From contig CAJINV010000001.1 of the NCBI GenBank assembly GCA_905178155.1, positions 8,463,599 through 8,527,598 of the forward strand: a DNA stretch of 64,000 nt, given 5' to 3'. The stretch is from Amoebophrya sp. A120. Taxonomy: Eukaryota; Protista; Dinoflagellata. The translations under genes were made by a program, and so were the position numbers. Positions 11,054 to 59,994 of the stretch are shown one piece after another. The notes under the pieces were generated by a model. The model was not told the DNA's origin, did no database searches, and saw nothing but the letters and a program-made list of their open reading frames with translations. Numbering within the stretch: position 1 is the stretch's first letter; every line of letters begins with the position of its first letter.

Positions 11054-11411
11054 GGGTAGGGAGGGGGTGGGGAGGGGGTAGGGAGGGGGTAGGGAGGGGG
11101 TAGGGAGGGGGTAGGGAGGGGGTAGGGAGGGGGTAGGGAGGGGGTAGGGAGGGGGTAGGGAGGGGGTAGGGAGGGGGTAGGGAGGGGGTAGGGAGGGGGT
11201 AGGGAGGGGGTAGGGAGGGGGTAGGGAGGGGGTAGGGAGGGGGTAGGGAGGGGGTAGGGAGGGGGTAGGGAGGGGGTAGGGAGGGGGTAGGGAGGGGGTA
11301 GGGAGGGGGTAGGGAGGGGGTAGGGAGGGGGTAGGGAGGGGGTAGGGAGGGGGTAGGGAGGGGGTAGGGAGGGGGTAGGGAGGGGGTAGGGAGGGGGNGG
11401 GGGGGGGTAGG
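11054..11411 (+). repeat. G-rich 11-bp minisatellite (GGGGGTAGGGA)n, about 30 copies
   Basis: Near-perfect tandem array visible directly; an N at 11398 means the true length is uncertain. Confidence 0.97.
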
Positions 11412-12063
11412 AAGAGGAAATGCGGTAGGAAGAAGCCTGGCGAGGGAGGAAATGGTCTGAGGTCCGCAGTGTTCTTCTGTGGCATGTCAATAGCGCAGTC
11501 ATAGGCAAAGAATAGCGCGCGCGCTTTATTTTATGCACAAATTTACAGGTAGAGTATATACATACTCCACGAATTTTTGTATTTTTCAAAAATTGAAAAA
11601 TTTTCAAAAGTTAAAAAAATGCTTAATATTACAAAAGAATGCACAGAGAAACTAAGACGAGGGGCCCACGATGCATTTTTCTTGTCATTGTCATTATTTT
11701 TTTCAGAAAATACATTGTATATTCATAATTTCTGGCGGAATTGAAAAGGCTAAAAATTTCGACTTTGTGAAAATTTTCGGGAAGCTGTGGAATTGCAAGG
11801 AATTTACTTGTAAAATTGCAAGCCTTCCAATGCGTTTTATGTTTTCAAACAATTAGCATTGTAGTGATATACTACAAGTAGGCATATGTGAACACTTTGA
11901 AAATTTTTGAAAATATCTATTTTAACAATTTTCATTTTTACCTTAATACAAAACGCCAAGAGATCACCTATGTAGATAGCGCATTACATATATGCTCACT
12001 AGCATTAGTGTGCTACTTTAAAACTTAAGCTTCTAGCTTTTTTCTTTTTTCGAAAAATTTTGA

Positions 12064-13010
12064 CTGTGCGAATATGGGGCCTTTTCAAGTTTGGCCGCAA
12101 GGCGGCCCTATCCGGCTCGCTTTAATTAGTGCAGGTCTGAAATAAAGTTGCTGACAGCCGGAGTTGTCGTTTGCAAACCTGACAAGGCAAAAACTTGCCA
12201 TATTCGGACCGGTGAAACCTGTGCGAATATGGGGCCTTTTCAAGTTTGGCCGCAGGGCGGCCCTATCCGGCTCACTTTAATTAGTGCAGCTTTGAAATAA
12301 AGTCGCTGACAGCCGGAGTTGTCGTTTGCAAACCTGACAAGGCCAAAACTTGCCATATTCGGACAGGTGAAACAGGTGAAACCTGTGCGAATATGGGGCC
12401 TTTTCAAGTTTGGCCGCAGGGCGGCCCTATCCGGCTCGCTTTAATTAGTGCAGCTTTGAAATAAAGTTGCTGACAGCCGGGGTTGTCGTTTGCAAACCTG
12501 ACAAGGCCAAGACTTGCCATATTCGGACAGGTGAAACCTGTGCGAATATGGGGCCTTTTCAAGTTTGGCCGCAAGGCGGCCCTATCCGGCTCGCTTTAAT
12601 TAGTGCAGCTTTGGAATAAAGTTGCTGACAGCCGGAGTTGTCGTTTGCAAACCTGACAAGGCCAAAACTTGCCATATTCGGACAGGTGAAACAGGTGAAG
12701 CCTGTGCGAATATGGGGCCTTTTCAAGTTTGGCCGCAAGGCGGCCCTATCCGGCTCGCTTTAAATAGTGCAGCTTTGAAATAAAGTTGCTGACAGCCGGA
12801 GTTGTCGTTTGCAAACCTGACAAGGCCAAAACTTGCCATATTCGGACAGGTGAAACCTGTGCGAATGTGGGGCCTTTTCAAGTTTGGCCGCAAGGCGGCC
12901 CTATCCGGCTTGCTTTAATTAGTGCAGCTTTGAAATAAAGTTGCTGACAGCCGGAGTTGTCGTTTGCAAACCTGACAAGGCCAAAACTTGCCATATTCGG
13001 ACAGTGAAAC
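12064..13010. repeat. Six-copy tandem satellite with alternating 155/164-bp units
   Basis: Units starting ctgtgcgaat at 12064, 12219, 12383, 12538, 12702 and 12857. Copies 2 and 4 carry an extra acaggtgaa. Confidence 0.95.
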
Positions 13011-13165
13011 TTTTGAAAAAAATAAAAACACTTGACGCATGTCTAGTGTTTTAGTATGTGATGGAGTGTCTATGCAGAAAAGTAATCATATGGCTGCACC
13101 TTGGGCCATTTCAGTTCACAAAATCCGCCAAGGCAGCCACTTGGAAATTTTTGGGGTATATGATG

Positions 13166-13400
13166 CCCCCTCCATGTCCCCTTCCCACCCCTGCCATACC
13201 CCCCCTCCTCTCCCTAGCCCTTCCCTGGTCCCTCCGTAGCCCCTCCCTAGCCCCTTCCTAGCCCCTCCCTAGCCTCTCCCTAGCCTCTCCCTAGCCTCTC
13301 CCTAGTCCCTTCCTAGCCCCCCCCCAGCCCCTCCCTAGCCTTTCCCTTTTCCTTTCCCCTCCCTGCCCTGTCCCGAGCCCGTCCCGACCCCCTCCCTACA
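13166..13400. repeat. C-rich degenerate microrepeat (ccctagcctct)n
   Basis: Repeated ccctagcc(t/c)(c/t)t units at 13210-13340 within a pyrimidine tract. Confidence 0.85.
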
Positions 13401-15825: not shown

Positions 15826-17848
15826 ATGCGGGGCGGCTTCGGCGCCTCCGGGCAGCAGCAGTCGCAAGACTGCGCGTTTGAGGCCGGAAAAGTGAACGGC
15901 ACGCCGATCCGCGTGAGTTACTTTCTCGTGATCATGTTTGGCTACCAAATTCTGCAGGCCTTGCAGCAGCGCGCCCCCGTGTGGTGGCTCCCGGTCGCCT
16001 ACGCCGCCGGAACGCAGCTGATCCTGCTCGCCACCATCCTGTGCCACGAGTTCGGCCACGGCACGATGGCGAAGTACCTCGGGGGCCAGATTTCGCAGAT
16101 CCTGCTCTGGCCGTTCGGCGGCATCTGCTTCAGCACCCGCCCGGGCAACGTGTACGACGGGCGGACGAAGATCAAAAACGAGATGAAGATCGTGTGCGCG
16201 GGTCCGGCCACCCACTTCTTCCAGGCCCCGTTTTGGGTGCTGCTGCTCCAGTTCCAAGCCTTCGCGTACGACCTGGACCTGCTCCCGCTCGGCTTCAAGG
16301 ACCGGAGCGAGCTGTGGCAGCTCCTGATCCCCTTCGCGCCCCAACCGCCGGTCCCCTTCGAACAGCTGCCGAACCTGTTCGCGGGCCTGGGGTGGATGCT
16401 GTGCGTGTGGGCGGCCACGACCAACGTGTTTCTGTTTCTCTTCAACGTGCTGTTCCCGATGTACCCGATGGACAGCGCGCAGATGCTGGTCTGTGGGTTG
16501 CAGCTCTGCGGCGGCACGGCGCAGACCGCAGCCAAGACGCTGGTGTTCGTCTCGGTGCCGATGAGTGTGTTGCTGTTGATCTATGCGTGGTCGAACCGGA
16601 ACGCGGGGATGATGCCCGCGATCAGTGGGTACCTGGCCATCATGTGCCTATCAAATGCAAAAGTGTCTGGGTCTGGAAACTTGTGATGCTAAAATGTGCA
16701 TGATGAAAACACTTCCGAATGCAGTCCGGCATGACAACTTCCAAAAACGCTTTCTCATAGGCAATCCGCATGAGAAACTGCGTTTTTGCATGACAAAAGA
16801 GGCTGCGACTTCTGTTGGTTATGCAATACAGATTTTCTAGGTATGGAAAGCTAGCATTACTTCCAGACCCAGACACTTTTACAATCCATAGTGCCTGATC
16901 GAAGCCTATAACATCTGGCAGCTGTACGAGAAGCGGCAGTTGCACACGCACCGACTCTTCGAGCTGGCCCGGTCGGGCACGTATTTTGATCCCGTGCAGA
17001 ACGCGCGGAGGATCAACGTGTCGGGCCTAGACGACGACCTGAACGCAGGCGGAGATGGCCGAAATCGCGGCTTCTTGTCGGGCAGAAATAACAACGATTA
17101 CGTCCTGTTTGAAGGACAGGGAACGCGATTAGGCGGAGAGAATGACGATGTGGTGGTGCCCATAGCCGCACCAACAGGTACGCCCATGCCAAACCCTTTT
17201 CAAGCGCCTGGCAGCGGAGGTGCAGTAATACAACAACCTGCAGGTGGTGCTCCGTCGCCTGCTGTTGCGCAGCAGCAAGTTGTAAGAACCACTGCAGCGC
17301 CAGCACAACAGGATACTGGGAACCGAGCGGCCGGACTTTTCCCCGCGGTAATTTCCACACCCGCACCAGGAGCGGCACCCCCCTCCGGCGCCGCTGCTCC
17401 GATGCAACCGCCCACAGTGCAGCGAATGAGCAACAGCAGAGTTTCGCGAGCTTTTGGTACTTCCGAAGATAGGAACGCGAACAACGGGGTGAGTCACCCG
17501 TCAGACGGGACCTCTCCCCCGGTTCACAAGTCCCCGAGCGGCGAATTTCTGATACCCAATCCGGAAATAGCAAGGTCGCTGCAACCGTCATCTTCGGAAG
17601 GGCCAAGAACAGTAAATCTTCAAGACCAACCTCCTACCTCTTCTCCCGCGACCGGGTTAATACCTCCCACCTCGGCGGACCGGCAAGCGTTTCTGGCGAG
17701 GATGGAGAGGCAGCGCCAGGAGCAAGCGATGAGTGTGCGGGAGCTGGCTGAGGCGCGTGATGGAGTTCCAAGCAACAACGCCCCGTCGCCGCCCCGTCGC
17801 AATGTGCAGAACCAAAAGCAGAACAACCGAAATCCGAGTGGCAGGTGA
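15826..17848 (+). CDS. Peptidase M50 (site-2 protease-like) membrane metalloprotease; 2 exons split by an introner
   Basis: HExxH (CHEFGH) in a TM segment and NxxPxxPxD-like NVLFPMYPMDS. Removing 247 nt joins ..LAIM|CLIEAYNIW.. in frame with ORF 16940-17848. Confidence 0.88.
16649..16890. mobile_element. Introner family A (TSD gtgcc)
   Basis: TIR tatcaaatgcaaaagtgtctgggtctggaa / ttccagacccagacacttttacaatccata; gtgcc at 16644-16648 and 16891-16895. Confidence 0.93.
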
Positions 17849-19072: not shown

Positions 19073-21260
19073 ATGAGCACGAGTTTCAAACTCGTGACGG
19101 AATACTTCGTATCAAATGCAAAAATGTCTGGGTCTGGAAGAATGCAACTTGTCATGCTAAATCTGAAGCATGCAAAAATCTGTGTTGCGTGACTACCAAA
19201 AGTCGTCCAGTTTTGACCAAGTCGGGAGGGAGTTTCTCATGCAGGATAGGCATGGGAGAGATCGCACAGAATCTGTCACGCAAGGTCCTGCATTCCAGAC
19301 CTCATGGGTCATGGAGAAGCTGCATGACAAATCGCGCACTCTTCCAGACCCAGACACTTTTGCATTTGATACTTCGACCGCGCTTACGATTTAGAGAAAA
19401 GGCGCTTCAAAGGGAAAACCGTGGTCGAACGAAATGCACAGCGCAGGTTCATCTACAGCGCCGTGCAAGACTGGTATCTTATGATCTATGTATGCTTGGA
19501 GAAGCCATGATTCTAGGTTGATAAGGTGTAGAGGTGTAACTGAATAGGTCTAAGTTTATCGTCTTGCATGAAGACCGCCCGGTTATTCAATACGTAGTAC
19601 GTCATCGCTTCTGCTACAGAATGTAGCAAAGACAATGCGTTAAATTCGTTCCACTTTCCCAGAAACTTAACCGAAAAATACCAGCGCGGAAGCGGACTTT
19701 CAGCAGCTCCAGAGAAAGTATCAGTTCGAGGAGCTGACGAAATTCCTAAAATGCGAATCCTACAAACGGGGTCTCCTCGCCACGTTGTACGACACGGTGC
19801 GCGGCTTTCTCGTTTTACTCGCGTTCCTCGGCGGATTGTTTCCGATCGGACTTCTGAGCTTCCTGAGCCGAATAGTGATCAACCCCATCCTCCGGTATGT
19901 TTTCCGCGTTTCCGAGCAACATATGCCCTGCTACAAAATTTTTGCGCCCCTGATCGGGGAGGCGCTGGCGAGCCTGACGGGGGCAGAAGTAGTCGTCAGC
20001 GGGGACGAACATCTGGCGCACGTAAAGAAGGAACCGGAAAGATACATAGGTACAAACATACGACGTTCGTCATGAGTAGTTGCGCGGAAACAAAGAACGT
20101 TAAGAGAGAAGTAAACAGTTGATGCGCGATTCAAAATCTGCATGCGATCGCCTCTTGTTCAACGTAACCAGTGACCGTCAAATAAACCTTCACAGGGATG
20201 TTTTCTCACGGCGCGAACCTCGACCCGTTTGTCGTGATGCAGGGCGTGGGCAGCAAGGTGTCTTTCCTGTGGACCTACAAGCATTCGCTGCTCTACCTGC
20301 CTGGCGGGTTGGTTCTCGGGTACGGCATATCAAATGTAAAAATGTCTGGGTCTGGAAGATTGCTACATTTGTCATGCATGTCTGACATGGCTCAAGAATA
20401 TGTGATGCATGGGCACAAAGCTGTCCTCTTACCTGTCATGCAAAAACGCAGTTTTCCATGCGGAACACGCAACACATAGGAGCCCAAAAATTTGTTATGC
20501 TTGGCTCTGTATTGCAGTGGAACTCCCATTCACTTTTAGCTTTACAAATTTCCAGACCCTGACATTTTTACATTTGATACGGCATCGGACAGGAGGACGG
20601 TGCCATGAATCGTAGCAACCGGGAGAAGGCGATCCAGACGTGCGACCGCCTCGCGAAGTCTCCGCTGCCACCGATGGTAGCCCCGGAGGGGACGCGAAGT
20701 AAAACAGGATTGATCCTGCCGGAGCTGAAGAAGGGCGTTTTTTACGTCCAGAAGGACAGGAGTGCAAGGATTGTGCCGATCGTGGTCATTGGCAACTACG
20801 AACTGTGGCCACCCGGGAGGCCCATGCCGAAGATGGGAAGGTATGGCGTTGCCGTTGACGTGCAGTTCGCCTTCGTGCTATCGAGTAGAGAATAAAACTT
20901 TCATAAGGACCCAGTCCGCAATCTCGAGTGAAGAGCACAACTACGGTCAGAGCAGGAAAATATGTGTGACTTTTGTACTAACCTATCGGCCGCAACGCAA
21001 CTACAATTTTTTCCAATTTTAACAGGGTCCAGATCTCCATCCTCCCTCCGATGGATGTTCCGGCTGACGAGGCGCAGGATGTCACCCGGGAGCGCGTCCG
21101 GCAAGCCTACATTAAGGAATCAGCAAGGGATTTTGGAGACTTGAACAGAGTCAGCACTCGATTCCTGCTGAAACACTTTCTGGTGTGGATACCCTTTTGG
21201 CTTTGCTCCCTGTACCTCATGTTCCTGGCGATCACGTCTGCATTAAGCCGCGTGCTCTGA
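19073..21260 (+). CDS. PlsC/LPAAT-type acylglycerol-phosphate acyltransferase, multi-exon (5' end uncertain)
   Basis: HxxxxD (SHGANLD), PEGTRS and KKG..IVPIVV motifs. The frame is restored by removing two introners plus GT-AG introns (e.g. 19474-19684). Confidence 0.85.
19110..19371. mobile_element. Introner family A (TSD cttcg)
   Basis: 31-bp near-perfect TIR; cttcg at 19105-19109 and 19372-19376; internally very similar to 55418-55680. Confidence 0.95.
20328..20579. mobile_element. Introner family A (TSD cggca)
   Basis: TIRs tatcaaatgtaaaaatgtctgggtctggaa / ttccagaccctgacatttttacatttgata; the join gives GYGIGQEDGAMNR. Confidence 0.95.
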
Positions 21261-24900: not shown

Positions 24901-27900
24901 TCCGCGCCGGTGCTGTTCTTCTTTCAATCTCGAGTAAGTCTTGGCACGGGAATTCAATCTTCGCATGATTTTCAGGTCCGCGACTCGTCGGATTCGCCTT
25001 TCGTGCAGAATAATTGGCTGAGCCTCATTGTCGCCGATACGCGGGATCCGGTAACCGCCGAGGCGCGGGGAGTGACTTTGGCACAGTGCCTGGAGTATCT
25101 CGAGGACTTGAAAGTGTACGAGTCGCAACCGTTCTACTTCTTCCAGAAGCGGCTAGAAGAGGCCCCGAGCAAGCGATACCCGAAGCTGGGGGAGTACGTC
25201 CCCGTGGACGCGGAGAAGGAAGTGGGCAACCAGTGGCTCGTGAAGAACTACAAGGTGGATGCAAAAATCCTCCGGCGAGTCTGTGATGTTTTCACGAGCT
25301 GTCAGAGCACCAAGCCGGAGTTTCCGGTGCGGAAGGCGGAGTTCATCATGCAGCTGAAGCAAAAGGCAAGCCTGCTGGCGGACCTGCACAAAACACCGGT
25401 CATGATGGTGGAGGGCGGCGGGGAAAAAAGTATAAGATGTGTAGTTGCTGCAATGAGTTATCAGCTGATGTATAGTCGTACGTATGATTGTGTATAGGTT
25501 TTAAGCAGACCCTCTAAAAAACCACAGCAACAGTAACCATTCTAAACCAAACCCCAGGTTCTCTCTCGCCACTTTGGGCAGAGATCATTCCTGGCCTGGC
25601 TGGCTACAGTAAAGACATGCTGCAGTGGTCGGACGTTTTGGAGGTGGTAAAGGCAAGGTGTGACGTCTACAAGGCTATCACGGACGGCAAGCAGGCGGCA
25701 AAAGATGCTCCCGGAGAGAGTGCCACGAAAAAATCGCCTCCAAGCAAAAAGAAGATGAAGTACGAGCCCATAGTGGTCACGACCGCGGAAGACGACGACC
25801 TCCCGGCCGCGGCGAAGGAACTCCAGGCAATGGTGCAGTCCATCGAACGTGGAGACCAGGATGGCCGCTTTGCTTCTACGTCGCCGGAGAAGGGCGGCCC
25901 AGGTTCTTTTTTTCTTCGGGAAAGGGATGATTTTAGTTTTTCCGATTGTCATGCAATTTGTTAGAAACTTCAGCGAGTGTCAGTGTGAGCTTTTGCTTTA
26001 TCGCCGTTCAATAAGTATTTTGAAACTCCACCTCCTACTGCCCAGGCTCGCCTGCGCCCTTCGTAGCGCCAATCGTAACGCAACCCGGCGACGAGTACTC
26101 ACCCAACAAAAAGGGGCGGTCCCTGTCCCCCATCCCGCCCGCGGAGAGCTTCGATCTGGTGAGACGGACGCAAGACTTTTCGCTCGTCAAGGGTCCGGAA
26201 CTCGCTGACATGATCGATAACACACTGGATGTAGAGGACCCGGCAACGGAAGCCCAGAACCGCGCGCTCATGCCGGTGGGCAAGTTGCAGCTCGTGCTTG
26301 ACGCAGACTACTCGGCGTTTCTACAGGCCAGCCAACCGGAAACGCGGCTCGAGGCGGTGCGGAGAAGGGTGTGCACGGTATTATATTTGAAAAAAGGTCT
26401 TTGACGATGCAACATCTCCTGTCAGCCGGATTTGTCTATGAAGTAGAGGAAGTTCTTTTCTACGTACTACTGCGACAAAACCAGGCGCGAGTAGTGAATT
26501 AGACTCCTAGAAGTTCTGATGTTCTAGACCTTCATTGAAGTAATTCTAAAATGCGTGCAGGTCCTCGAGCTGGACCCCACGTGCGTAAGCCTGAAGTCGC
26601 TCTCCCGCAAGAACGGGCTCCTGCAACTCGACCTGGAAACCGAGCAAGTGAGCCCGGACTCGGCGGACAAGCGGCTCGGGTTCGCGACCCAGGGGAGTTT
26701 TGACTTGAACGGCGTGATTGGGTACAGAGTAGTCGATCTCCGGTTCCAGGGCCGGGTCTTCATCGAGGACGGCGAGAAGATCTACCTCCGGCCCAACGTG
26801 GCCACCTTCGGCAGTACCGGCGACAGTATAGCACCCGCCGCTGGACAAACGCAATTCCCAGCAGGGCGGGGAAACAAAACTTTGTCCAAGGAAGAACTCA
26901 CCGAGGAGGAGCGGAAGTACGCGGACTGGTCAAGTTCGCGCAACGTGCTGGAAAAACATGGGGAGAAGTATGCAAGTACACCGAGCCTGATCAAAATGCC
27001 TTCCTTTGCCGCCCCAGACAACTACTGGGAATTGAGGCGTATAGTTCTGGTTCAGAAGATGAAGAATAAATTACGGTGGCCTGATAGATTCATGATGTTG
27101 TGACAACCCTAGCGTGCGCCGGGTTCATCTTCGAAGAACTTGCTGCGGAGATCAACGCACTGCCTTGTTTTTGCGTCGTTCTTGCGTGATAATGATCACG
27201 AGGTCTTGTTGCACTGATCCAACATTTTTGTTTTATCAATCGAAAAAATTTACAGAGGGCACGCGCATCCGCGACCGGCGGCTGAACACCATGATATCGG
27301 AGCGCGACAAGGAACAAACCGGAAGCACCAAATTTGTCGCGAATCCAGTTCCGCAACACATCTACCTGCCGCGGTATTCCCAGCTGGACCTGGCGGAGAA
27401 GGCGAGAAGATCTAGCGCGAAAAATCTCGCGCGCCTGAATTACACAAACGAAATATCCTGAGTAAAAACGTCCCCACACCAGAGTCAAGATGGGGACTCG
27501 GCTAGACAAATCCACAAATTTTGGCTGTTTTGCATGACAAATTTGAACTCGTAGTCTAGTGCTGTTTGACCTACCTCAGCAGCATCACAGATCTACTATA
27601 TGATGCTGATTGGAGCATGACAAATTCCAAAACACGACTGCGACAAGCTCTTTATGGGGCTCCGCATGAGAAACATTTTCACCATGCAGATCTGCATCAT
27701 TGTGATGGCACTTAGGAGTCCGCCTGACCCACCCGCCCTGCGTCTCAGGCCATCTGCGGCTATGGCACAATGGGGGGGCAAAGTGTGTCGCATTTTGTTT
27801 AGCATGACAACTCTGGGGTGGGGACGTTTTTACACAGGATACGAAACCACCGGGGAACAAAAGAACAACGCAACCACCGAGCGGCCCGCGACGACACGGG

Positions 27901-30814: not shown

Positions 30815-32830
30815 TTGTCTTCTGTACAAGACAACATGGTTGCGCCGTCGCCGGTAAAAATCGGGGCTGTGACACCGGTCGACGGAACAAAAGTGGCCGC
30901 ACAGGTGAAGGCGCAGAATGAAGATCCAGCTGCAATCACGGTGCTTTTCTCGAAAATGAAAATATCTGGAGCCAACTCCATTTTCAGTTGGCTTTTCGTG
31001 CACCCGCTCGGAAGTGGTGCAGCCGAAAATGCTGCAAAGACCCTCAATGCAACGCTCCACCTTCCAGCAGAGACCTTTGTCGCGAACGCCATCAAGAATA
31101 AGATGGTCCAGCCCTGGGCGACCGGCGCCTGGAACCGAATGCTGGCGGTAGTCTTGGTCACGCTCGTGATGGGCTGGTACCCGATCATCGTGTTCGTTTT
31201 GCCGAATTTCATCACCTGGCACCCCAACCCGGAGCACAACTTCGCCTGCTACTTCGTCGGAAATCTGCCCATGATGTGGCAGCGATTTGCTCGTAATAAA
31301 ATTCTATGGCGTTCTTTCGTTTGTTTCTGAGTTCTCTGTCGTTTTTCTCAATAGTACTAGATGTAGTTCTACTCTTATGGTTTTACTCATATCCGAAAAA
31401 AATTACGCAGCACGATGATAAAGTCGAGTCATGTGGAGGTCTTTACACAACAACAAAATTTTACCGTTTCCCAAATAAATTGTTCCAGTTTTCCCAATTC
31501 CGCACCTGGTGATTTTCTGGAGTTTCGCGGTTCTCCGTTTCCCCGGCACCACCTGCTGGAATTGGTACCAGCGGATTTTCCACTTCGTCTGGGGCGGCGT
31601 GATGCCCGTCATTTACGCGCTCGACGAGGTGTACGGGTCACCGCTGGATGAGTACGGGATTCCCGAGTCTTCCCCCACGCACAAGCTGGTATTCACCATC
31701 GGTCTCGTCATTTCCCACCTTGCCTTCTTCACGTCCGCGGTAGTGTCGATCTACGACGCGCGGCAAGCGCGGAACAGTTTCCGGGAATGGAAAGAAGAAC
31801 TGGCAGACCAGTTGCTCTTCGTGGACAGGTATCCACCGCAAAAGTATACTCGCGCTCGTAGTGAAATTGCAGTTATGCAGGGGAAATCTCGCCACGACGC
31901 GCTGGCTGGTCCAGGTTGATGGGCTTTATTTTTCAGATTGAAAAACAAAAAATTTGCGATGCCAAAGAATATACCCAGTATCTTTGCGATGCATACTAGC
32001 AACGTCGGCGTTATCGAGGACGAAACCATCGAAGAGGACGAGCTGGAGTTACGCATTGCAAATATGTCTGAGCAGTCTGGGTGTGAATTTGTGCTGCGAG
32101 ATCTGAAGGTGCGAATTAAACCGTAAGAAGCCTCGCAAGAGGACTTCTAAGACAGTTGATGTTCTAGTTCTGTCCTACTAGCGGCCGCTCTGCGACGCGA
32201 GTATTAGCAACACAAATTTCCAGAGTCCAGTCCCAGACATAATATTTGCATTCGACAATAGTATCTCAACGTCAACAGTGTTGAAAGTACTCATCATGGC
32301 AGTAGTGTGTTCAACAAGCGAATAACTTCTCCCGGTGCAGCAGCGCCAGCGCGGAATATCCCACCTATTCCTCACAAAGAGAAACTCGCTTACTACGACG
32401 ATGTGCGCAAATCGTACGAAAAGGCAGTTCTCGTCCTGTCCTTCATTGGCCTCGTGGGCTTCGTGTGCGTAGTGCGGAGTGTGCAGTTGCTGTGGAATGC
32501 GGGCGTTGGAGGCTGCTTTCTGAACCAGTATAGAGATGCGGAGCCTCTGCGTTTATTTTTTTTTCATGCTGCGCAGCTATTGTTCTTGACATGAAACAAG
32601 AATGGTTTTTAGCATGCTGAAATGAACCTATCAGTTCGGCAGCGCAACTAAAGAAAAAACCCACACATTTTAAATTTCAGAATTGTCGGCGTCACCTCTG
32701 TGCAAAACCAGTGTCACTGCGAGTCGGCCACACTTTGGTCCTGCTTCTTCATGATGTTTTGGTTCTACGTCGGCAGCTTTCTCCCACTCTGCGCCCTGGA
32801 TACCTGCACGTAAAATCAACCGTCGGAGTT
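30815..32830 (+). CDS. Multi-exon polytopic membrane protein of unknown function (ends approximate)
   Basis: Hydrophobic ORF segments 30815-31292, 31489-~31829, ~31938-32108 and ~32340-32580 with GT-AG junctions (e.g. 31293-31488). Confidence 0.6.
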
Positions 32831-33719: not shown

Positions 33720-36700
33720 ATGGGGGGCTGCTGCGCAAAAGCGAAGGACCCGGTGGGGTGGCAGCCGGTAGTGGACCTCAGGGATCGGACGAGCCAGCGG
33801 GAGCTGAGATCGAAAAAGTCCGTGCGATATCATACATCACAGATATTCGATGAGGACTATTCATTGGAGAACGAGGTGTGAGTTTGTTTCTCTTGATGCA
33901 ATGATTTCTTGCATTTTTTGTAATGTCGAATCTGCAGGGAGAAAAAACAAAAAGCCTTCGAAACAAAAAAAAGAAGATGCAGAAGATAGCAAAAACTACA
34001 TAAGAAAATAACCTCTCGCACGCCCTGATATACTAAATACAATATCAGGAAGTGCTCGGTAGTGGCTACAACGGGATGGTGAAAGTTTGCGTTTCGCGCG
34101 TGACCGGGGAGCGATGCGCCGTGAAGTCCTTCACGAAGCAAGTTTCGACCACGAGAAGTTCAAAGTCCCCCGGCAGCGACGACGACGACCCGCATCGACA
34201 GCTACTGAAAAACGAGTGCGAGATCTACCTCGCATTAGACCACCCAAACATCGCCCGGTTATGAGAGTGCACAGCTCCCCCTCTCCCTTATTTGTAATGC
34301 AAAATGCCAAATCCATGCCTTGCCTCTAGGCTCTCTCTGCATGACAGATTTCGGAAGCGCAAACAGTACTAGACTAGGCGCATAAATTTGTCATGCGTAG
34401 GCTCCACGTGTGCTGGTGTTTGTATAGCTGTTCAAGCCATACAAATGAGGGGGTGGGGGAGTTGTGCACTCTCATACCGGTTGATCGACTGTTACGAGGA
34501 CCAGTTTTCCATCTACTTTGTGATGGAACTTTGTTCCGGCGGCGAGCTGTACGCGCGGCTGATCGCTCAGAAGCAGTATTCTGAGTCCGATGCACAGGCC
34601 GCGGTGAAGCAGATGCTGCTAGTTATCACAGTAGAGATGAAGAATACAGTAGAGCCATAGAAGTTGTCTTCCAGAAAAAAAATTGATTTGCATTGCGGGC
34701 CATGATCTGCGCCCCTTTTTGTTGTCCGCATATGTTGATACAGGATTTTTTTTGTTGACAGGACTGTGGCAAAAATGTGATTTCTTTTTCTGGCACTCAA
34801 CGGGTTTGCAGCTTTTCTGTAGGATATAAGCTACCAACTATTTGCACCACCACGGTATCGTGCACCGGGACTTGAAGCTGGAAAATTTTCTCTATTGGGC
34901 GGAGGACAGCGACGTGTTGAAAATGATCGATTTCGGCTTTTCCCACGTGCTGAACGACAAAAAGCCCGTGGTTGCGGCCTGCGGCTCGATTTCCTACATG
35001 GCACCGGAAGTGATCGCGTCCGCCGCGGCGGCGCAGGCGGTGGAAAAAGCAGCCAGTTCTACTTCGTATCCCACAGAAAAAAGCTGGCAGGGCATATTTG
35101 TAATGCAAAAATAAATACACGGAAAAATCTGTCATGGGCGGCCTCATAGCATGCTATTTAGGATATGCAATACAAATTTTCTTGTCAATTTATTTTCGCA
35201 TTACAAATATGACCTGCCAGTTTTTTTCTGTGTGATGCTTCGTCGTCGAAGCCCATACCGCCCGCGGCGGAGAAGGAGGACCCGATCACGGACAAGGTCG
35301 ACATGTGGTCCCTGGGGGTGATCTATCCTCAGTAAAAACGTACCCACGCCAGAGTTGTAATGCAGATTTGCAAAGACAGGAAGACTTGTAATGCGCATCC
35401 CCATGAGAGCCATTTCCAATCGTGTTTTGGAATTTGTAATGCTGTAAACAGGATGAGCAGATGGATTTCTGATGCAGCTGGCCTTGCGAACCTGCACTAC
35501 GCTACGGACTGCAGCTTGTGATGCGTGACTCACAAAACTCCTAGGTTTGTGTTGCAAAATCCCCATCCTGACTCTGGTGTGGGTACGTTTTTACTCAGGA
35601 TATGATCACCTTCATGCTTTTATCCGGCTACCCGCCGTTCTCCGGGGGGCACGAGACGGAGCTGCTGTCGAAAATCCAGAATGCGCAGTACGTGATGATA
35701 CCCGAAAGGTGGCACAACGTGTCGGCCAAGGGCCGCGATTTCGTGGAGAAGTTGCTCGTGGTCTCGAAAACGCAGCGCATGACGGCGGAGGACGCGCTGC
35801 ACCACCCGTGGATAACCGAGGCGATCGCGCCCTTGTCGTCCTCCGCCGGGGTGCAATGGGGAACCGACGTGCTCGGCGGCATTCGAGAGTTTGCGACGGC
35901 AAGCCACTTCAAACGGGCATGTTTGAGTATGATGGCCTGGGGACTCACGCCCAAGGAGCGGGCACAGGTAACAAGAAGTTTAGTTGTACTGGTGTGCGAT
36001 GAGCGATCTGCTGTCCTTGGCAGCACGATGTCAGAACTACGCCTAAATTTTTAACTTGTCTCCAGTGCTGGCGTCAAAAACTACTTACGTACCTCGTCGC
36101 CTGTGGGAGTGAGTACTTACTAGACGTCGTTGCAAGAGACTTCTGGGCTCGGCGCCGTCGTATAGTAAGTTTTTACTCTCCCACAGGTCCGCGACTTGTT
36201 CTATGATCTCGACCGGGAAGGGGACGGCTTCGTCACACTCGACGTGTTCAAGGAGGCCTTGCAGGAGCACTACCCCAGTGTCGCCTCGGAGGAAATAGTA
36301 AGGCTTTTTCACGCGGTCGATACGAACCACTCCGGGAAGATTTATTACAACGATTTTCTCGCAACAATGCTCCAGTTCCGGCTCCACGTGCACGAGTCCC
36401 TGCTTCGACACACCTTCAACCAACTAGACGTCGGGCGGTCGGGAAAAATCACCGTGGAGAACTTGGCAACCATACTCGGAAAAACCTTCGAGGGCGCCAC
36501 CGTCGAGGAGTTCATGGATGAAGTCAAAGGTACAAGAACTTCTGCGACTGTATTAGATTGATGTTGTCGGCGGAACCACGGAGGAAAAGCATTTTTTTGA
36601 CCTGTATAAAAATCGCAGCATATAATTAGAACAATGAGCTGCAAGTCGACGACCAATGACAGTTTATTTGAACGGACGATTGCCGCGTTTGTACTAGTTG

Positions 36701-37794
36701 TGTTCTGGAATAACCAAAAAAAGGTGACCGCAACGGCGAGATATCGTACGAAGATTTCTGCAAGTACCTGGGTTGCGATCCGAATTCGAGCAAGTTGATC
36801 GTCGCCGCGGACGCGCTGCGGGGGGTGTCTCGGGAGGTCTACGAGGAGGTGGACCGCAAGCTGGAGCACCAGGAGGAGGTCGTTTCCAAGCTGTATATCC
36901 TGAGTAAAAACGTCCCCACACCAGAGTCAGGATGGGGATTTTGCAACACAAACCTAGGAGTTTTGTGAGTCACGCATGACAAGTTGCACTCCGCAGTGTA
37001 GTGCAGGTTAGCAAGTGCAGCCGCATCACAGATTCATCTGCTCATCCTGTTCACAGCATCACAAATTCCAAAAGACGATTGGAAATGGCTCTCATGGGGA
37101 TGCGCATTACAAGTCTTCCTGTCTTTGCAAATCTTGGTGTGGGGACGTTTTCACTCAGGATACTGTACCAGGAGGAGGAATCCAAATCCACGGTGAACGT
37201 GTATGGTGCTCTCAACTGTTACATTCTCAACTGTTACATATATTTGTGATGCAAGAATGGCAAAACTGAAGAGGGAAGATTGCGCCTTTTGCATGACAGA
37301 TTCGGCACAGATTCCCAGCCTGTTTGGGCCTTCCAGAATTTGTCTTGCGCAGCAGCTTGATCGCGTCGAATCTGATTGCAGTTTTGCATGACAAATCGTG
37401 TAACAGTTGAGAATGTAACGTTTGAGAACGCCATAACGTGGGCGGGGAGCAGACGGCCCAACAGATAAAGCAGACCGTTTCGGGCAGTACGTGGCCGCGG
37501 GAGGAGAGCAAGCTCGGCACGGCCGCGAAGGTCGCCGGGGAGCAGCAGGCGGCGCAGCTGGGGCTGGCGCACCACCACGGGCCCGAACGACAACCCTCGA
37601 AATCGGGGCTGGTGCCGCCGCCCCAGCTCGGACCGTCCGCGATTCTCGCAGTGTCAAGCAGGGACCATTTGTCGAGGGACAAAATATCCGGGACCGTCAT
37701 GAGTCGGAAGAGCGGTTCGAAAAACACCCCCACCAAAGTTGAGGAGGTACCGGTGGCGTTCGACCCGACAAAGGAGGACGATACGCGGATATAA
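33720..37794 (+). CDS. Calcium-dependent protein kinase (CDPK-like) with N-terminal acylation motif
   Basis: MGGCC N-terminus; LGSGYNGMV, AVK, HPNI, HRDLKLEN, DFG, APE, DMWSLGVI and GYPPF motifs; EF-hands DLDREGDGFV, DTNHSGKI and DVGRSGKI. Six introners plus GT-AG introns. Confidence 0.93.
34260..34476. mobile_element. Introner family F (TSD ccggt)
   Basis: TIR tatgagagtgcacagctcccc / ggggagttgtgcactctcata; the join gives HPNIARLIDCYED. Confidence 0.95.
34624..34826. mobile_element. Highly degenerate introner (TSD remnant ctagt/taagc)
   Basis: tatc...gata ends; the required intron length is 208 = element + 5, giving QMLLATNYLHHHG. Confidence 0.6.
35067..35237. mobile_element. Introner family C (TSD cttcg)
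   Basis: TIR tatcccacagaaaaaagctggcagggcatatttgtaatgc / gcattacaaatatgacctgccagtttttttctgtgtgatg. Confidence 0.94.
35324..35602. mobile_element. Introner family D (TSD tgatc)
   Basis: 32-bp TIR; the join gives WSLGVITFMLLSGYPPF. Confidence 0.96.
36896..37162. mobile_element. Introner family D, opposite orientation to 35324-35602 (TSD ctgta)
   Basis: The internal sequence is the reverse complement of the 35324 copy; the join gives VSKLYQEEES. Confidence 0.96.
37202..37435. mobile_element. Introner family E (TSD acgtg)
   Basis: TIR tatggtgctctcaactgttacattctcaactgttaca / tgtaacagttgagaatgtaacgtttgagaacgccata. Confidence 0.94.
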
Positions 37795-49451: not shown

Positions 49452-50719
49452 ATGAGTGCAAAAATCGATTGCCAAGAACGGAGTCCGATTCAAGAGAATG
49501 AAATCGTTCCCGGGCTACCGCCCGAAAGCGCCCGCGGAAGCAGTAGTCGGTCCAGGAACAAGAGCCCGCTTAGCAGTAAAGCCACGTCCCGAAAAGGCTC
49601 GAAGAAGCGGGCGCGGTCGGTGTCTCCGCAATCCCCGACGGCGGTGGAGAACGTCGGTGTGAGCCCCTCTGTGCGGGACTGGAACGACGTACCGGGGGCG
49701 ATGATTGTTCCGATGGATCACGCCGGGGATCATATAGATGGTGGAAATTTGGATCCTACAAATGCAGAAACCAAAGAAAAATCAAAATCCTTCTGCATAG
49801 CCTTTCACCCGGCCGTGAAGAGCAAAGTTTCCGACGCCAAGAAAATCGTGCTCGTTTGCTGCCCGGGGAATGGGCTCGGGCCTGGCCCACTGGGGAGCTT
49901 CGGCCCGGACAAACTGTTCCTCAAGCTCGCGCAAGAGATGACGACCGCGTGCCGTACCTGCCGGAAGCACCGGCACTGCGAGATTTCGGTCGTCAACGTC
50001 GTGTACCACCGGCGGGCGCAGGTGGAGCCGGCCGTCGAGGACGTCGTCGTCGCGGTCCAGTGGGTCGCGCGTCAGTTTCCGCCCGACACCATGGTCGTTT
50101 TGCTAGGTTGGTCCATGGGCGGCGCGGTCGTGATTGAAGCGGGGTATCGGGTGACGCAGACTTTGAAGGTCGTTCCACCCGAAAATTGTAGCATCATCAC
50201 GCTGGGCGGGCAGTCGGCCAAGGCGGGGAAGATTGTCGCTTTGCACGAAAAGACGCCACTGCTCATCCTTCAAGGGGGCGCCGACCGGTGTATCCGCCCG
50301 CAGTGTGGCATATCAAAAGTCAAAATGTCTGAGTCTGGAAACTTGTGATGCTGGGTGGCGTCTCATGATGACGCTACAAATGCTGTCTCAGCATGACAAG
50401 TTTCTGAGCTCCTAGGTGTTGCCTATTCTGCATGACAAACTGCGCTTCTGCGTCACAGAAAAACGGAGCTCTTGGGTAACGTGCGTGACAGATTTAAGAG
50501 TCATGTCAGACAAGCATGACAGTCATGAATTCTTCCAGACCCAGACATTTTTACAGTTGATATGGCAGGGGCTTGTACAAAAGGAGCCTGGACGCGGGAA
50601 AAACCAATGTTTTCTACGAAGAGTTTCCGGAAGACAGTCACGACACCGAGACGGCTTACCAGTTTTTGATCAAGCAACAAAAACTGCTGGAGTTGCTGGG
50701 CGCAAAAAAGGAAAAGTAA
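49452..50719 (+). CDS. Alpha/beta-hydrolase; 2 exons split by an introner
   Basis: GWSMGG nucleophile and QGGAD acid; the candidate catalytic His (EDSHD) is in frame only after removing 50311-50567. Confidence 0.88.
50311..50562. mobile_element. Introner family A (TSD tggca)
   Basis: Imperfect family-A TIRs; tggca at 50306-50310 and 50563-50567. Confidence 0.93.
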
Positions 50720-51817: not shown

Positions 51818-54800
51818 ATGCGCGAATTCGTCGAGGCCTGCCTGGCGCAGGCCCGCGTGGATGCGGAAGAGATGCGGCCGCGCAACTTGCTCAGAAAGGG
51901 TCGATCCCGGGGCGAACGCATCTACATGCGGGTTGTGGGCCTGTGCGAGACCTCACTTCGCGGGTTTTTGGTGAAACTACCCCTGTTCCTGCTGGAGAGG
52001 ATACCGCACGCCGCCTCGCTCTGCTCCATTGGGTATCTGTACGTGTTTGCGCAGTGCACGGGGATGGCGTGGATGCTGCTGCTGCATTTTGCTTCGGTGT
52101 TGACCCAGGCGTTCGCTCGCTGTCTAAAGGACAGCTCGGCGAGCTGTTTGCGACCGCCGGAACACATAGAAGCTTCAACACAAACAGCCGGATCAGCAGC
52201 GAGCTCAATTTTCTCGGCATCAGTGCAGAGTGGTGGAGAAAGGGAAAAGGGGACAACGACTAGCAAGTCCCCAGCAGACATTTCGATCATTGAGCCATGG
52301 AACTTCAACACACCATCAACGGAGACTTTGATCGTCTTCTACCTGTACTATGCCATGGGCCGCATGCTGATCTTCGTGGTCTACGGACTGTACACCATTG
52401 GCTGGGAGTCCTTTCACGACTTCCCCACCGTGCGGAAGACGTATCCCACAGAAAAAAGCCGGCAGGGCATATTTGTAATGCAAAAATAAAAACACAGAAA
52501 AACCTGTCATGGGCGGCCTCATAGCGTGCTGTTTAGGATACGCAATACAGATGTTTTTGTGTATTTATTTTTGCATTACAAATGTGAATGTCTAGAAAAA
52601 AAAAATCCAATAGAAATTCTCCCCCGCCCCAATAGAAATTCTCCATATAGAGAATCTCCCGCGTCGAGTCTTTCGGTTCCCGCTTTGTCTTCGATTGCGT
52701 TTGATCTTCGCCTTCGCCTGGCGCAAAAGCTGTTGACCTTCCTCTGGCGCAAAAGCTGGCCGACTTTTTCAAAGTGCTCTTCTTGTTCCGTGCCCATGGA
52801 CGGGTAAAAAAGTTCCTGTGCATGTTTCGGCCTCGGGGGGTTCAGGTTTTTCGGGAAAGAAAGAATAACTCTGCAACGACCTGGCGGCCGGCGTAGGGGA
52901 AATAAAGAATATTCCCGCACAGTGCGCGCGCGCGGGCTTCTTTTTGAGCGGCCGGACGCTCTTGCTCGCCTATGCGCGGCATCTGGGTGGCGGCGTGGCG
53001 GAAATGAAAAAAATTTCTGCGCACTGCGTGGGCGCGGGCTTTTTCTTGTGAGCAGCCGGAGGCCCCTTATCGCCGGCCCGCGCGCCACATCGGTCTTGCG
53101 GCGTGCCGGTATCGGAAAATAAAAATGCGCGCCGTCGCCCGCGCGCCGCGCTTTGTAGCGATGTGGGATCGAAGTCTAAAAATTTTCGCGCGCTGCGCGC
53201 TTGCGAGTTTGCTTTTCTGAACGGCCGCGCACTCCCGCCGCCCGCGCGCCGCGTATGGTGGCGATTTGGGATCGAATTCAAAAAATTTTCGCGCGCGGCG
53301 CGCGCGCGAGTTTTTTTCTCTGAGCGGCCGCGCACCCCAGTCGCCCCCTTCGCGCGCCGCGCTCGGTGGTCATGCATGCGGAATCGAATTCGAAAAATTT
53401 CCGCGCGCGGCGCGCGCGCGAGTTTCTCTCCCTGAGCGGCCGCGCACCCCCGTCGCCCGCGCTTTGGCGATGCGGAGTCGAATCGAAAAAATTTTCGCGC
53501 GCTGCGCGCGCGTAAGTTTTTTTCCCTGAGCGGCCGGGCACCCCCATCGCCCGCGCGCTGTGTTTGCTTGCTTGGTGGCGGGGCGTGGGATCGAATTCCA
53601 AAAAAATTTGCGCGCTGCGTGCGCCCGAATTTTTTTCCCCGAGCGGACGCGCACCCCCGTCGCCCGCGCGCCGTGCTTGGTGGCGATGGGTGTCTGTCGG
53701 GTCGAATTCAAAAAATTTTCGCGCGCCGCGCGCGCGCGAGTTTTTTCTCTGAGCGGCCGCGCATCCCGATCCCGGTCGCCTCCCTGCGCGCCGCGCATGG
53801 TGGCGATGGGTGTGCGGTCGAATTCAAAAAAATTGTGCGCGCTGCGCGCGCGCGATTTTTTTTCCCTGGGCGGCCGCGCATCCCCATCGCGTGCGCGCCG
53901 CGCTTGGTGTCGATAGATGTGGAGGCGAATTCAAAAAATTTTCCCGCGCTGCGCGCGCGCGAGTTTTTCTCCTTGGCCGGTCGCGTATGTCCGTCGCCCG
54001 CGCTTCGCGCTTCGTGGCGATAGATGTGGAGGCCAATGCAAAAAATTTTCGCGCGCCGCGCGCGCGAGAGTTTTTTTCCTTGGCAGGTCGCGCATTTCCG
54101 TCGACCGCGCTTCGCGCCTGGTGGCGATGTGGGATCGAATTAAAAAAATTTTGCGCGTGGCGCGCGCGTTTCTTCTTCTACTGGGCGGCCGCGCACTCCT
54201 TTGCGCGCGCCACACATGGTGGCGCGTTTGCTGGGATTCAAAAAAAGTTTCGCGCGTTGCTGTCGCGCGCGCGGGTTGTGGGGGGAATGGGTTAAATTCT
54301 TTCGCGCGGGGTGCGGCTGCGTCGTGGTTGGGTCGGTGGAATGGGATAAATTCTCCTGCGCTGCGCGCCTGGAGTTCGTTTTTTCGAGCAGGCGGCGCGC
54401 GCTCCTTTTCGTGCGCCGCGGCTCTCGGCGTTGGTTGCGGGAATGAAAAAAAAAACTCCTCACGCTCCGCCCGCCTAGGCTTTTTCTTTCGTGCGCCCTT
54501 TTCCCGCGTGCCGCACCTAGATGGCGGCGGACCGGCGTTGTGGGGGCCCAAAAAAGTTTCGCCCTCTTTCGGGCAGGCGCGCGGACGTTCTCGTGTGTCG
54601 TGCCTGGCGCCGCAAAGTGGGCCGATCAAAGATTTTCGAGGAGCGCCGCGCGCGCCTACATTATCGCGCGTCACACCTAGTCGGTGTGGCCGTGCGTCGC
54701 GAAGATAATCTTCCGGGCTGCCGCTAGACGGCCTGGGCTGCGTACCTGTAGCCTTCCTGGGCAGGCTGCCCCTAGCATGATTGGGCTACCTCTGGCCTGC

Positions 54801-57800: not shown

Positions 57801-59994
57801 TCTCGTTTGAAGCGAACCAAAGGGGTGCGGCGGAGAACGGTGAACAGGAAGCCACTAGTTTGGCGGCAGGCGAGAGCGATAAAGTAGACACTAGCCTTTC
57901 TGGCGAACAAACAAGCGTCACACTACTCCCAGACCCGAACTTCGTTTCTGTGAGCCACGTCGTGAGCCACTTGCAGGTGAAACTCGCAGACGCGAAAAAG
58001 CAGAAAAGTTCCAATTGGGTCGGCGGCTTGCTAGCTTCCATCACCGGCGGGGATAAAGAACAAGCAGCGGTTTCTCTTTCCGGTGCATCTTCGACAGCTC
58101 AAAGTACTGGGAAAAATCATCTCGGGGACCAGCAAGCGCAACCGCCGGACGGGAAGAGACCGGACGAGGATGGCAGCGAGGTAGAGTCAGAAGACGTAAA
58201 TGTCCTCTCTTCCACCTCGGCTGAACCTGGTAACGAATTCCGGAGCCGGAACCCGTTTTGGACGGTACCCAAGTACGCCGCCTGCGGCCAGCTCTACCAC
58301 GGGCTGACGCTGCTGGATTGGGCGCTGGTGGCGGAGAGCGTGTACCTCGAGTCGAAAGAGGAAAGGGAATATTTTCTGGAGAAAGTGGTTTTTCCGAATT
58401 CCTGGTACGAAAAGGACTTGTCGCAGCGGCCCCAGGTGCGCACGCACTCGTTCTCGAAGCACGGCAGTGCCGCATACATGGAGATTTTCTTTCCGGAGCA
58501 GGACATGACCGTGGTCGCGATTAAAGGTAAGTAACTAAAAGGGTCGATGTTGAGATTTCGAGATCTACAAGTAATTGATTTGGGATGCAATTAAGTTGTA
58601 GTTGTACACGGTAGTTAGAGTTACTTATTCGTTCTTCGGTTTTCAACGCAGTGAAGATCATCACCACATCACAGGTACCGACCCGCTGAAGTTGCTCGAT
58701 TTCCTCGAGGACCTGCGGATGTGGCGCGATGCGGTGGTGGTCAGTTTGCTCGCAAACCTATTTCCCGCCGTTCGCGCCTGGCCAAAGGCGACGACCGAGA
58801 TGGTGATTCGGTTCCAGCACGAGTTTCTAGAGAATTTAGGCCTGGTCGAATCTCACTGGGCATTCGACGAGTTGCTGCACAAGTACGGCGGCAGTGAAAC
58901 GGTACTAGTACAACCTACCGGGATCACAGAATTGCAGAACATCAAGTCGGAAAATGGTGTTTCCACGGCCTCGGCCGCGGCGAGTCCTGCCCCGCTTGAT
59001 GCAGATGCTGCAGAGCCACCACCGCAAGAAAAAGAATTATCCGACGAGAATCCTCCTGCACCGAAGCCGTCAAAAACCGTGTTTGTGGGGCACAGCATGG
59101 GCGGAGGTATTGCCAGCATTCTCGGGTTATCAAATGCAAAAATGTCTGGGTCTGGAAGAATGCAAGTTTGTCATGCTTGTCTGGCATGACTCGAGGTCGA
59201 GAATGTGTGTTGCATAGGCACGAAAAAGCCCTCTTACCTGTCATGCAAAAACGCAGTTTGCCATGCGGAATACGTAAGACATGGTAGCCAAAAAATTTGT
59301 CATGCATAGCTGCGTATTGCAGTGCGTCTACCATTCATTTTTAGCATTACAAGTTTCCTGACCCAGACATTTTTGCATTTGATACAGGTTTCTTAACCAC
59401 GCACCGGTAGTCGCTTTCCAGCCGCCCGGTGTGTACCACTCGATCGCGAAATTTCAGCAGGTAAAGCGGGACATGAAGGCGTATGACTTTGTGCACCACG
59501 AAACTCTGAACATTCTGGTGGAAGACGACTGGATCAACAACGTGTTTGACGAGCACGGCGGTTTGTTGCAGCAAATCGGGTGCGATTACCCCAATCGCAG
59601 CATGTACCTGAGCTGTCACCTGCTCGAGTCGGTAATCAACCACTTGTACAAGAGCTGCGGAGAGGACAGAGCGGACGACCTGGTGGAAATGGTCGAAGAG
59701 AAAATAGTTAAACCCGCGGGAGCAGGTAGTGCTGCCGCGTCTACCTCCACCAGCAAAGAGGCCGGCGTGACGAGGACCACAAAGGTAGAACGGCGCATCA
59801 GCAAGAAGCCGAAGCGGTTCGACTATGTGGAGTGGAAGTTTGAGGTGCTGACGCAAAGCACTTGGGACACGATTTCCGAGGAGGTTTCGACCTATGTAAG
59901 ATCGTCCACCTTCTACAGCTACTTTGTCGCGCTGTCCTCGTTCCGCTACACGGCCGCCTGTCTGGCGCTCGTCGCGGTGGTGCGGTTATTGTGA
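51818..59994 (+). CDS. Multi-pass membrane protein with C-terminal class-3 lipase domain (5' end uncertain)
   Basis: VVAIKG|TDP..DFLED, VFVGHSMGGG and AFQPPG motifs. Exons are joined across introners 52442-55372, 55418-55680 and 59128-59384 and GT-AG intron 58527-58674. Confidence 0.85.
53150..54300. repeat. Degenerate ~95-115-bp tandem repeat (about 10 copies), core gaattcaaaaaattttcgcgcg
   Basis: The core recurs at ~53274, 53386, 53480, 53593, 53704, 53820, 53928, 54036, 54137 and 54234. Confidence 0.9.
54715..55150. repeat. CTAG-rich microrepeats followed by 20-bp tandem repeats (gatggagagtctctatttcg)
   Basis: gggctgcc/cctagc units at 54715-55045; five ~20-bp units at 55050-55150. Confidence 0.85.
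55418..55680. mobile_element. Introner family A (TSD cacgg)
   Basis: Perfect 30-bp TIR; the join gives ERYTVRVTC. Confidence 0.96.
59128..59384. mobile_element. Introner family A (TSD cgggt/caggt), excisable as canonical GT-AG intron 59126-59387
   Basis: Family-A TIRs; the join gives SILGFLNHAPVVAFQPPG. Confidence 0.94.

What the first reader, a model, noticed from the sequence alone, without database searches (positions are those of the whole stretch)
35324..37162. Same introner in opposite orientations within one gene implies orientation-independent excision
36896-37162 is the reverse complement of 35324-35602 (gtaatgcgcatccccatgagagccatttcc versus ggaaatggctctcatggggatgcgcattac), and both must leave the same + strand CDPK mRNA. 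Family A shows the same pattern: 16649 and 50311 are inverted relative to 20328 and 59128, all in + strand genes. Spliceosomal signals are directional, so this points to recognition of the TIR stem and symmetric motifs.
Basis: partly seen in the sequence, partly recalled or inferred. Interest (0 to 1): 0.8.

Follow-up and report, generated by a model that had tools for sequence, protein, structure and literature searches.

The report
Transposon introns spliced in either orientation
Two copies of one small hairpin-ended transposon sit in opposite directions in a kinase gene, and both are missing from the gene's transcript assemblies; these match an intron class already published for the marine parasite Amoebophrya, and direction likely does not matter because the splice signals likely lie in the element's two matching ends.

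Summary
Observation confirmed. 36896-37162 is the reverse complement of 35324-35602 (88.5%). Both are TAT…ATA inverted-repeat elements with 5-nt direct repeats and no GT-AG ends. Transcript-type contigs (one sample) lack both: the first by a direct joint in 4 of 4 runs, the second by exact length arithmetic in 2 of 2 runs. The spliced gene encodes a 695-aa kinase with EF-hands that runs past 36896. In 80 further loci plus the window, copies lie in both orientations about equally (16:18 and 9:11 in strict calls).

The inference is weaker. Terminal inverted repeats look the same either way round, so orientation independence places the signals in the ends but cannot tell a stem from linear signals. 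Spliceosomal introners that work in either orientation are published (Polarella, Aureococcus). I found no RNA-stem selection (G·U 101, A·C 92), but a directional trace: AG enriched at one repeat position. The class matches the Amoebophrya introners of Farhat 2021; my searches found no report of their orientation neutrality. The scan found this class, with a 1+4 cut, on other DNA of this genome.

The parts
33720..37794 (+). CDPK-like gene (kinase plus EF-hands), 10 exons, 695 aa after removing 9 introns
   Evidence: Pfam on exon pieces: Pkinase E=3.8e-5 (below the curated cut-off), EF-hand_7 E=1.6e-16; 2 of 4 pieces had no hit
35324..35602 (+). E1: 279-nt TAT..ATA TIR element, 5-nt DR TGATC, inside the kinase domain; removed with one DR copy (284 nt)
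   Evidence: direct joint in 4 of 4 runs; hairpin z=-7.6
36896..37162 (-). E2: 267-nt copy of the same family, inverted, DR CTGTA, in the C-terminal tail; removed with one DR copy (272 nt)
   Evidence: exact length arithmetic; hairpin z=-5.9
27454..27841 (-). Third family copy (388 nt, DR CGAAA), oriented like E2, in the upstream + strand gene
   Evidence: the 981 nt missing between 27038 and 29042 in X1 equal 217+393+199+172; spliced ORF 3402 of 3405 nt
34260..34476 (.). TIR element of another family, DR CCGGT, removed (222 nt)
   Evidence: joint in 4 of 4 runs
34624..34826 (.). Aged TIR element with a decayed DR (2 of 5 letters alike), removed (208 nt); places the cut after DR position 2, 3 or 4
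   Evidence: joint 34620->34829, 2 ambiguous letters
35067..35237 (.). TIR element ending ATG instead of ATA, DR CTTCG, removed (176 nt)
37202..37435 (.). E3: TIR element, DR ACGTG, removed (239 nt)
   Evidence: length arithmetic
16649..16890 (-). Family A-related copy in reverse orientation, DR GTGCC, removed (247 nt)
   Evidence: contig pieces 16643->16891 contiguous in X3 and X4
20328..20579 (+). Family A copy, forward; element + 5 removal gives an open frame; no RNA joint was printed
50311..50562 (-). Family A copy, reverse, in an alpha/beta-hydrolase ORF; no RNA joint seen
59128..59384 (+). Family A copy, forward, imperfect DR; outside both read lays
31830..31995 (.). Aged TIR element (13 of 20 terminal pairs) that is a canonical GT-AG intron 31829-31999, cut 1 nt before TAT and 4 nt after ATA
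32050..32254 (.). Aged TIR element with decayed ends, removed (213 nt); intron ends in AG under the 1+4 cut
   Evidence: joint 32046->32260, 3 ambiguous letters; end placed from the sequence

Best explanation
E1 and E2 are opposite-facing copies of a short inverted-repeat element flanked by a 5-nt duplication, and transcript-type contigs lack both together with one duplicate copy; they are likely non-autonomous DNA transposons that a loosened spliceosome likely removes by reading only the ~30-nt ends, which are the same in either direction. Shown: the copies, their polarity, removal of element + 5 nt in both orientations, no canonical ends at any of 6 registers, and no significant orientation bias among strand-called copies. 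Inferred: the cut falls 1 nt before TAT and 4 nt after ATA, so the donor N-TAT mimics this genome's usual GTA(T) donor with a free first base, and the acceptor is set by distance from the 3' end with a weak residual liking for AG. The hairpin probably helps bring the ends together but is not shown to be required.
For: Joints and lengths. No GT/GC/GA-AG pair at any register of E1 or E2. Orientation relative to the host strand: E-type 16:18, A-type 9:11 among 54 strictly called of 155 superfamily copies; 8 of 15 locus-strands with two or more strict copies hold both orientations. Interior polarity is consistent over 2460 of 2460 pairwise links. Three junctions with decayed repeats (34624, 32050, 31830) all allow the 1+4 cut and keep AG at DR positions 3-4 in both copies. 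11 of 14 canonical introns start GTA and 6 of 14 start GTAT. AG at DR3-4 in 21 of 169 sense-oriented copies, against 12, 9, 12 at the other positions and 6.5% background (one-sided p=0.003, one of four positions). Farhat 2021 reports nearly all spliceosomal proteins, with U1 snRNA not detected. The review PMC11282704 says Fritillaria TIR-derived non-canonical introns appear to be removed by the spliceosome.
Against: No call shows which machine cuts; lariats and branch points were not observable. The RNA evidence is assembled contigs of one sample whose RNA label is a guess; contigs drop minor isoforms, and the one raw-read run laid (X9) did not cover the gene. E2's joint rests on lengths. My junctions allow cuts after DR position 2, 3 or 4, not 4 alone. 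The AG excess is small (12%) and not significant against the antisense control (21 vs 11, p=0.11). With looser strand calls the superfamily leans 38:55 (p=0.097, CI 0.31-0.52), so a mild orientation preference is not excluded. 101 of 155 copies had no strict call, and the fetched loci have no RNA check.
Confidence: 0.55

Rival explanations
1. One reading: a structure-reading route, as in Euglena nonconventional introns, recognises the paired terminal stem and measures the cuts from it; linear sequence is secondary and the standard spliceosome may not be involved.
For: Both copies fold into a long terminal stem (z -7.6 and -5.9). Many families with different end sequences share only TAT and an A-run. 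U1 was not detected. In Euglena, removing the base-pairing impaired splicing in knock-ins (PMC12501133 passages).
Against: No G·U over A·C excess on the transcribed strand (101 vs 92 in 169 copies, share CI 0.45-0.60). Stem positions 4-8 are mismatched in 46-81 of 169 copies per position, right beside the cut. The directional AG trace and the GTAT-like donor point to the spliceosome. The stem is expected from transposition alone. These tests have limited power because the copies are young.
Confidence: 0.3
2. The missing segments are a reverse-transcriptase skip across a hairpin between direct repeats; the elements stay in the mRNA.
For: Direct repeats plus secondary structure favour such artefacts (PMC4176328 passages). 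No direct RNA reads were available.
Against: Keeping E1 breaks the reading frame inside the kinase domain. The aged element at 34624, with only 2 shared letters, is removed precisely in 4 of 4 runs. Every removal restores long open frames. For E2 alone the protein argument is weaker: retention leaves the kinase and EF-hands and changes only the tail.
Confidence: 0.04
3. The elements are cut out of DNA (like ciliate internal eliminated sequences), or the transcribed strain lacks them.
For: A transposase acting on symmetric ends would ignore orientation. The RNA-type and DNA-like runs are different samples and studies.
Against: DNA-like run X6 has unbroken contigs at depth 42-46 across both junctions of 34260 and of 34624, with GT-AG introns retained. 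At E1 and E2 its contig reaches only 26-27 nt into each element, below the 31 needed to count as bridging, and 139 joints were not shown. The RNA-type exon pieces listed around these genes show no differences from the window, yet lack even aged elements.
Confidence: 0.04
4. Both orientations are removed, but one works better because interior, directional signals (branch point, the TGTNATGC motif) contribute; independence is only partial.
For: Looser calls lean 38:55 (p=0.097); the close E1 subfamily gives 8:15. Polarella either-orientation classes all show a bias.
Against: Strict calls give 25:29 (p=0.68); mismatch counts of the 5' and 3' arms are alike (90 vs 99, 94 vs 114). The lean could come from insertion rather than splicing.
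Confidence: 0.07

Closest known systems
Introner elements among the non-canonical introns of Amoebophrya sp. A120 (Farhat et al. 2021, PMC7789003; read: abstract, sections 10, 11, 12, 16, term passages, term search of the one supplement text; figures not seen)
   Same: Repeated non-GT-AG introns of about 240 nt with terminal inverted repeats starting TAT followed by an A-run, 3-5-nt direct repeats at the boundaries, many families, hairpin proposed.
   Different: The paper does not treat element orientation: 'orientation' occurs 4 times in the main text (the passages shown concern gene order), 'strand' 0 times, and likewise in the supplement text. It leaves the cut position undefined. Repeats here extend to about 32 nt against the 8-20 reported.
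Either-orientation introners of Polarella glacialis and Aureococcus anophagefferens (bioRxiv 10.1101/2020.10.14.339549, passages; the original Aureococcus paper was not held)
   Same: DNA-transposon-derived introns with target duplications that create introns in either orientation.
   Different: Those keep GT/GC/GA-AG splice sites from the element or the duplication and show an orientation bias; E1 and E2 have no canonical site at any register and no significant bias.
Euglena nonconventional introns (PMC12501133, passages; review PMC11282704 section 6)
   Same: Non-GT-AG introns with complementary terminal triplets at fixed spacer distances from the cuts, end pairing, probable MITE origin.
   Different: Code is N3-CDG...CHG-N5-6 then a purine, pairing shown to matter, circular products; here N1-TAT...ATA-N4 is inferred and pairing is untested. 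Unrelated lineage.
Fritillaria borealis non-canonical introns (review PMC11282704 section 6; PMC13326754 abstract start and passages)
   Same: TIR/TSD-derived non-GT-AG introns attributed to a modified U2-type spliceosome.
   Different: Preferred AG-AC/AG-AT ends and a conserved U1; here the end dinucleotides come from the random target site and U1 was not detected in the published Amoebophrya strains.

Membership tests
Amoebophrya A120-type introner elements | Repeated intron family | tested here: met
   3 copies in the window; 78 E-type copies among 293 catalogued elements
Amoebophrya A120-type introner elements | Terminal inverted repeat starting TAT, then variable letters, then an A-run | tested here: met
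   description
Amoebophrya A120-type introner elements | 3-5-nt direct repeat at the boundaries | tested here: met
   5 of 5 letters for E1 and E2; 248 of 293 perfect, though the catalogue required at least 3
Amoebophrya A120-type introner elements | Non-canonical splice sites, absent from RNA | tested here: met
Amoebophrya A120-type introner elements | Host genome is that organism | not tested
   No genome held; rests on architecture and on unchecked earlier notes
MITE / non-autonomous TIR DNA transposon | TIR, fixed-length TSD, no coding capacity, insertion in both orientations | tested here: met
MITE / non-autonomous TIR DNA transposon | Cognate transposase | not testable with these tools
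   No genome held; no transposase family among 8 window ORFs scanned; Farhat found none in A120
U2 spliceosomal intron | GT/GC-AG ends | tested here: not met
   none of 6 registers for E1 or E2
U2 spliceosomal intron | Lariat and branch point | not testable with these tools
   contigs only; the raw-read run did not cover the gene
Euglena-type nonconventional intron | N3-CDG...CHG-N5-6|R code | tested here: not met
   ends are TAT...ATA
Euglena-type nonconventional intron | End pairing required for splicing | tested here: inconclusive
   stem present; no G·U excess

The most novel reading that the evidence does not exclude
A complete, direction-free splice code lives inside a ~30-nt transposon end: a U1-independent machine measures one base out from one side and four from the other of a TAT/ATA-closed hairpin, so any such element can land in any exon, either way round and at any target sequence, and be removed without a scar. 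That would explain the unchecked spread of these elements and give a portable self-erasing insertion cassette.
Probability: 0.3. Interest if true: 0.8.

Novelty: new member of a known kind. Interest (0 to 1): 0.42.

Why it matters
How these published non-GT-AG introns are spliced is open. Orientation neutrality narrows it: the interior cannot hold an essential directional signal, so the code sits in about 30 nt per end plus the position of the duplication. That makes small reporter tests possible, and a same-gene inverted pair is a natural control. It also means almost every exonic insertion could be tolerated, which would help explain the element numbers. Introner surveys that demand 5'-to-5' alignment (PMC12130899 methods passage) may split or miss such families. 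It does not by itself show a new splicing machine.

Tried and rejected
No whole genome was held, so the bias test used 80 loci found by an end pattern (80 returned, possibly a cap; none overlaps the window by more than 400 nt; same strain not established). My first intron model was off by 3 nt; boundaries were re-read and then matched the joints printed. Locus-level strand calling on unspliced ORFs failed because exons are short and was replaced by junction scoring. Laying a DNA-like run beside the RNA runs filled the joint table, so E2's joint was not printed. RNA joints for 19110, 20328, 18760 and 22630 were not among the 15 of 32 rows shown; none was seen for 50311 or 47253. G·U versus A·C test: null. 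5' versus 3' arm asymmetry: null in 44 E and 46 A copies. 'Symmetric interior motifs' rejected. Three papers were not held (their ids were recalled or taken from a reference list). Searches for a prior report of orientation neutrality in Amoebophrya: (0 papers); subscription journals are mostly outside the library.

Full report
Observation. E1 (35324-35602) and E2 (36896-37162) both begin TAT, end ATA, have about 32-nt terminal inverted repeats and are flanked by perfect 5-nt direct repeats that differ between sites. E2 is the reverse complement of E1 over the whole length, 88.5% identical. A third copy at 27454 faces like E2. The family A claims also hold: 50311 and 16649 align on the minus strand to 20328 and/or 59128 beyond the ends.

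Host gene. Removing three GT-AG introns and six inverted-repeat elements, each with five extra bases, gives a 695-aa frame from 33720 to 37794. Exon pieces hit Pkinase weakly and EF-hand families strongly (2 of 4 pieces hit), which fits a CDPK. Keeping E1 breaks the kinase domain. Keeping E2 would stop the frame inside E2, after the EF-hands, so protein logic alone does not force E2 out; RNA was needed.

RNA. Four contig runs of one sample, labelled RNA by guess, hold 52-55% of the gene's words. They skip canonical GT-AG introns, so they behave as spliced transcripts. In one search all four show the joint 35318->35603 (284 nt, 5 ambiguous letters) and the joints at 34260, 34624 and 35067. In one search single contigs of 3257 nt (X1) and 3084 nt (X2) span the gene; the model reproduces both lengths and all 5 and 3 checked positions exactly, and in X1 the stretch 35962-37441 fits only the subset that removes all four introns, E2 included (1 of 16). 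E2's joint was not printed as letters. The copy at 27454 is removed by the same arithmetic (981 = 217+393+199+172), and the reverse family A copy at 16649 by contiguous pieces in X3 and X4. Forward family A copies rest on open frames only. The DNA-like run X6 keeps introns and bridges two other elements; at E1 and E2 it reaches only 26-27 nt in. The raw-read run X9 did not cover the gene.

Orientation beyond the window. An end pattern fetched 80 loci. With the window they gave 293 distinct elements. 155 form one superfamily (E and A types) whose interior polarity is consistent in 2460 of 2460 links. Host strand was called with a codon model trained on three window genes and self-trained; strict calls exist for 98 of 293 and agree with locus votes in 89 of 91 cases. 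Relative to the host strand, E-type copies are 16:18 and A-type 9:11; three smaller families give 7:5, 2:3 and 1:4. Looser calls give 38:55 for the superfamily (p=0.097). Both orientations are common in exons; a mild lean is not excluded. These loci have no RNA check.

What this does and does not imply. Flipping such an element changes only its interior; the outer ~32 nt read the same. So the essential signals lie in the ends. This does not separate a paired stem from linear signals read by a directional spliceosome, and introners with ordinary splice sites that work either way round are described in Polarella and Aureococcus (bioRxiv 10.1101/2020.10.14.339549, passages). The interior TGTNATGC motif is directional and flips with the element, so it is not a symmetric splice signal; a role in transposition is my guess.

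Tests of mechanism. Both copies fold a long terminal stem, as any inverted repeat would. If RNA pairing were selected, G·U mismatches should exceed A·C on the transcribed strand; they do not (101 vs 92 in 169 copies; 58 vs 54 in 98 strict). Positions 4-8 of the stem are often unpaired, while 9-14, the A-run, are mostly paired. The 5' and 3' arms diverge alike. No register of E1 or E2 gives canonical ends. Three junctions with decayed repeats limit the cut to after repeat position 2, 3 or 4; all three keep AG at positions 3-4, and one (31829-31999) is a GT-AG intron in exactly the register one base before TAT and four after ATA. Canonical donors here start GTA in 11 of 14 cases and GTAT in 6 of 14, so N-TAT resembles them. 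AG is enriched at positions 3-4 of sense-strand repeats (21 of 169 against 6.5% background, p=0.003; against the antisense control 21 vs 11, p=0.11). I noted this register before reading the earlier notes, which propose the same 1+4 cut; they are unchecked and not independent support.

Best reading. Likely a relaxed spliceosome that takes N-TAT as donor and sets the acceptor by distance from ATA, probably helped by the hairpin (0.55 for the mechanism; about 0.9 for orientation-independent removal itself). A stem-measuring route like Euglena's stays open (0.3). Reverse-transcriptase skipping and DNA-level loss are unlikely (0.04 each).

Known work. The elements meet the sequence features of the A120 introner elements of Farhat et al. 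2021; I did not test the host's identity. That paper proposes the hairpin and an alternative mechanism but, in the text I could search, does not discuss element orientation (figures S19-S25 could bear on this and were not visible). Searches showed no such report. The finding is a real, apparently unreported property of a known class, expected from end symmetry, useful as a constraint rather than as evidence of a new machine.

Noticed in passing
window 52442-55372: A 2931-nt TAT..ATA element with a perfect 5-nt repeat, apparently inside an exon; its first 146 nt are 90% like the 35067 element and its interior holds a ~107-nt CG-rich tandem array (53132-54196) and 20-nt repeats. If spliced, it is a tenfold longer intron with the same ends. 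No RNA test.
   Followed up: partly
window 31829-31999: A canonical GT-AG intron that is an aged inverted-repeat element in the 1+4 register, suggesting such elements can age into ordinary introns.
   Followed up: partly
window 11053-13340: An 11-nt G-rich array (33 copies) and a looser inverted copy at 13210-13340 enclose an AT-rich stretch and six 155-nt repeats; could be a larger element or a chromosome structural site.
   Followed up: no
window 1294-7320 (-) and 8527-9897 (-): Long minus-strand frames of 2008 and 456 aa with no Pfam hit, opposite to the + strand gene block that follows.
   Followed up: partly
window and loci L001-L080: E-type and A-type elements have different ends but related interiors with consistent polarity, i.e. 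one superfamily whose ends have diverged or been swapped.
   Followed up: partly
L008:3001-4148, L018:3759-4965, L005:2673-3703: Elements of 1.0-1.2 kb with family ends; may be nested insertions or mis-paired neighbouring copies.
   Followed up: no
window 35067-35237, 32050-32254; L052, L066, L014, L078: Elements whose terminal TAT or ATA is mutated; the two in the window are still removed in RNA contigs, so the triplets are not strictly required.
   Followed up: partly
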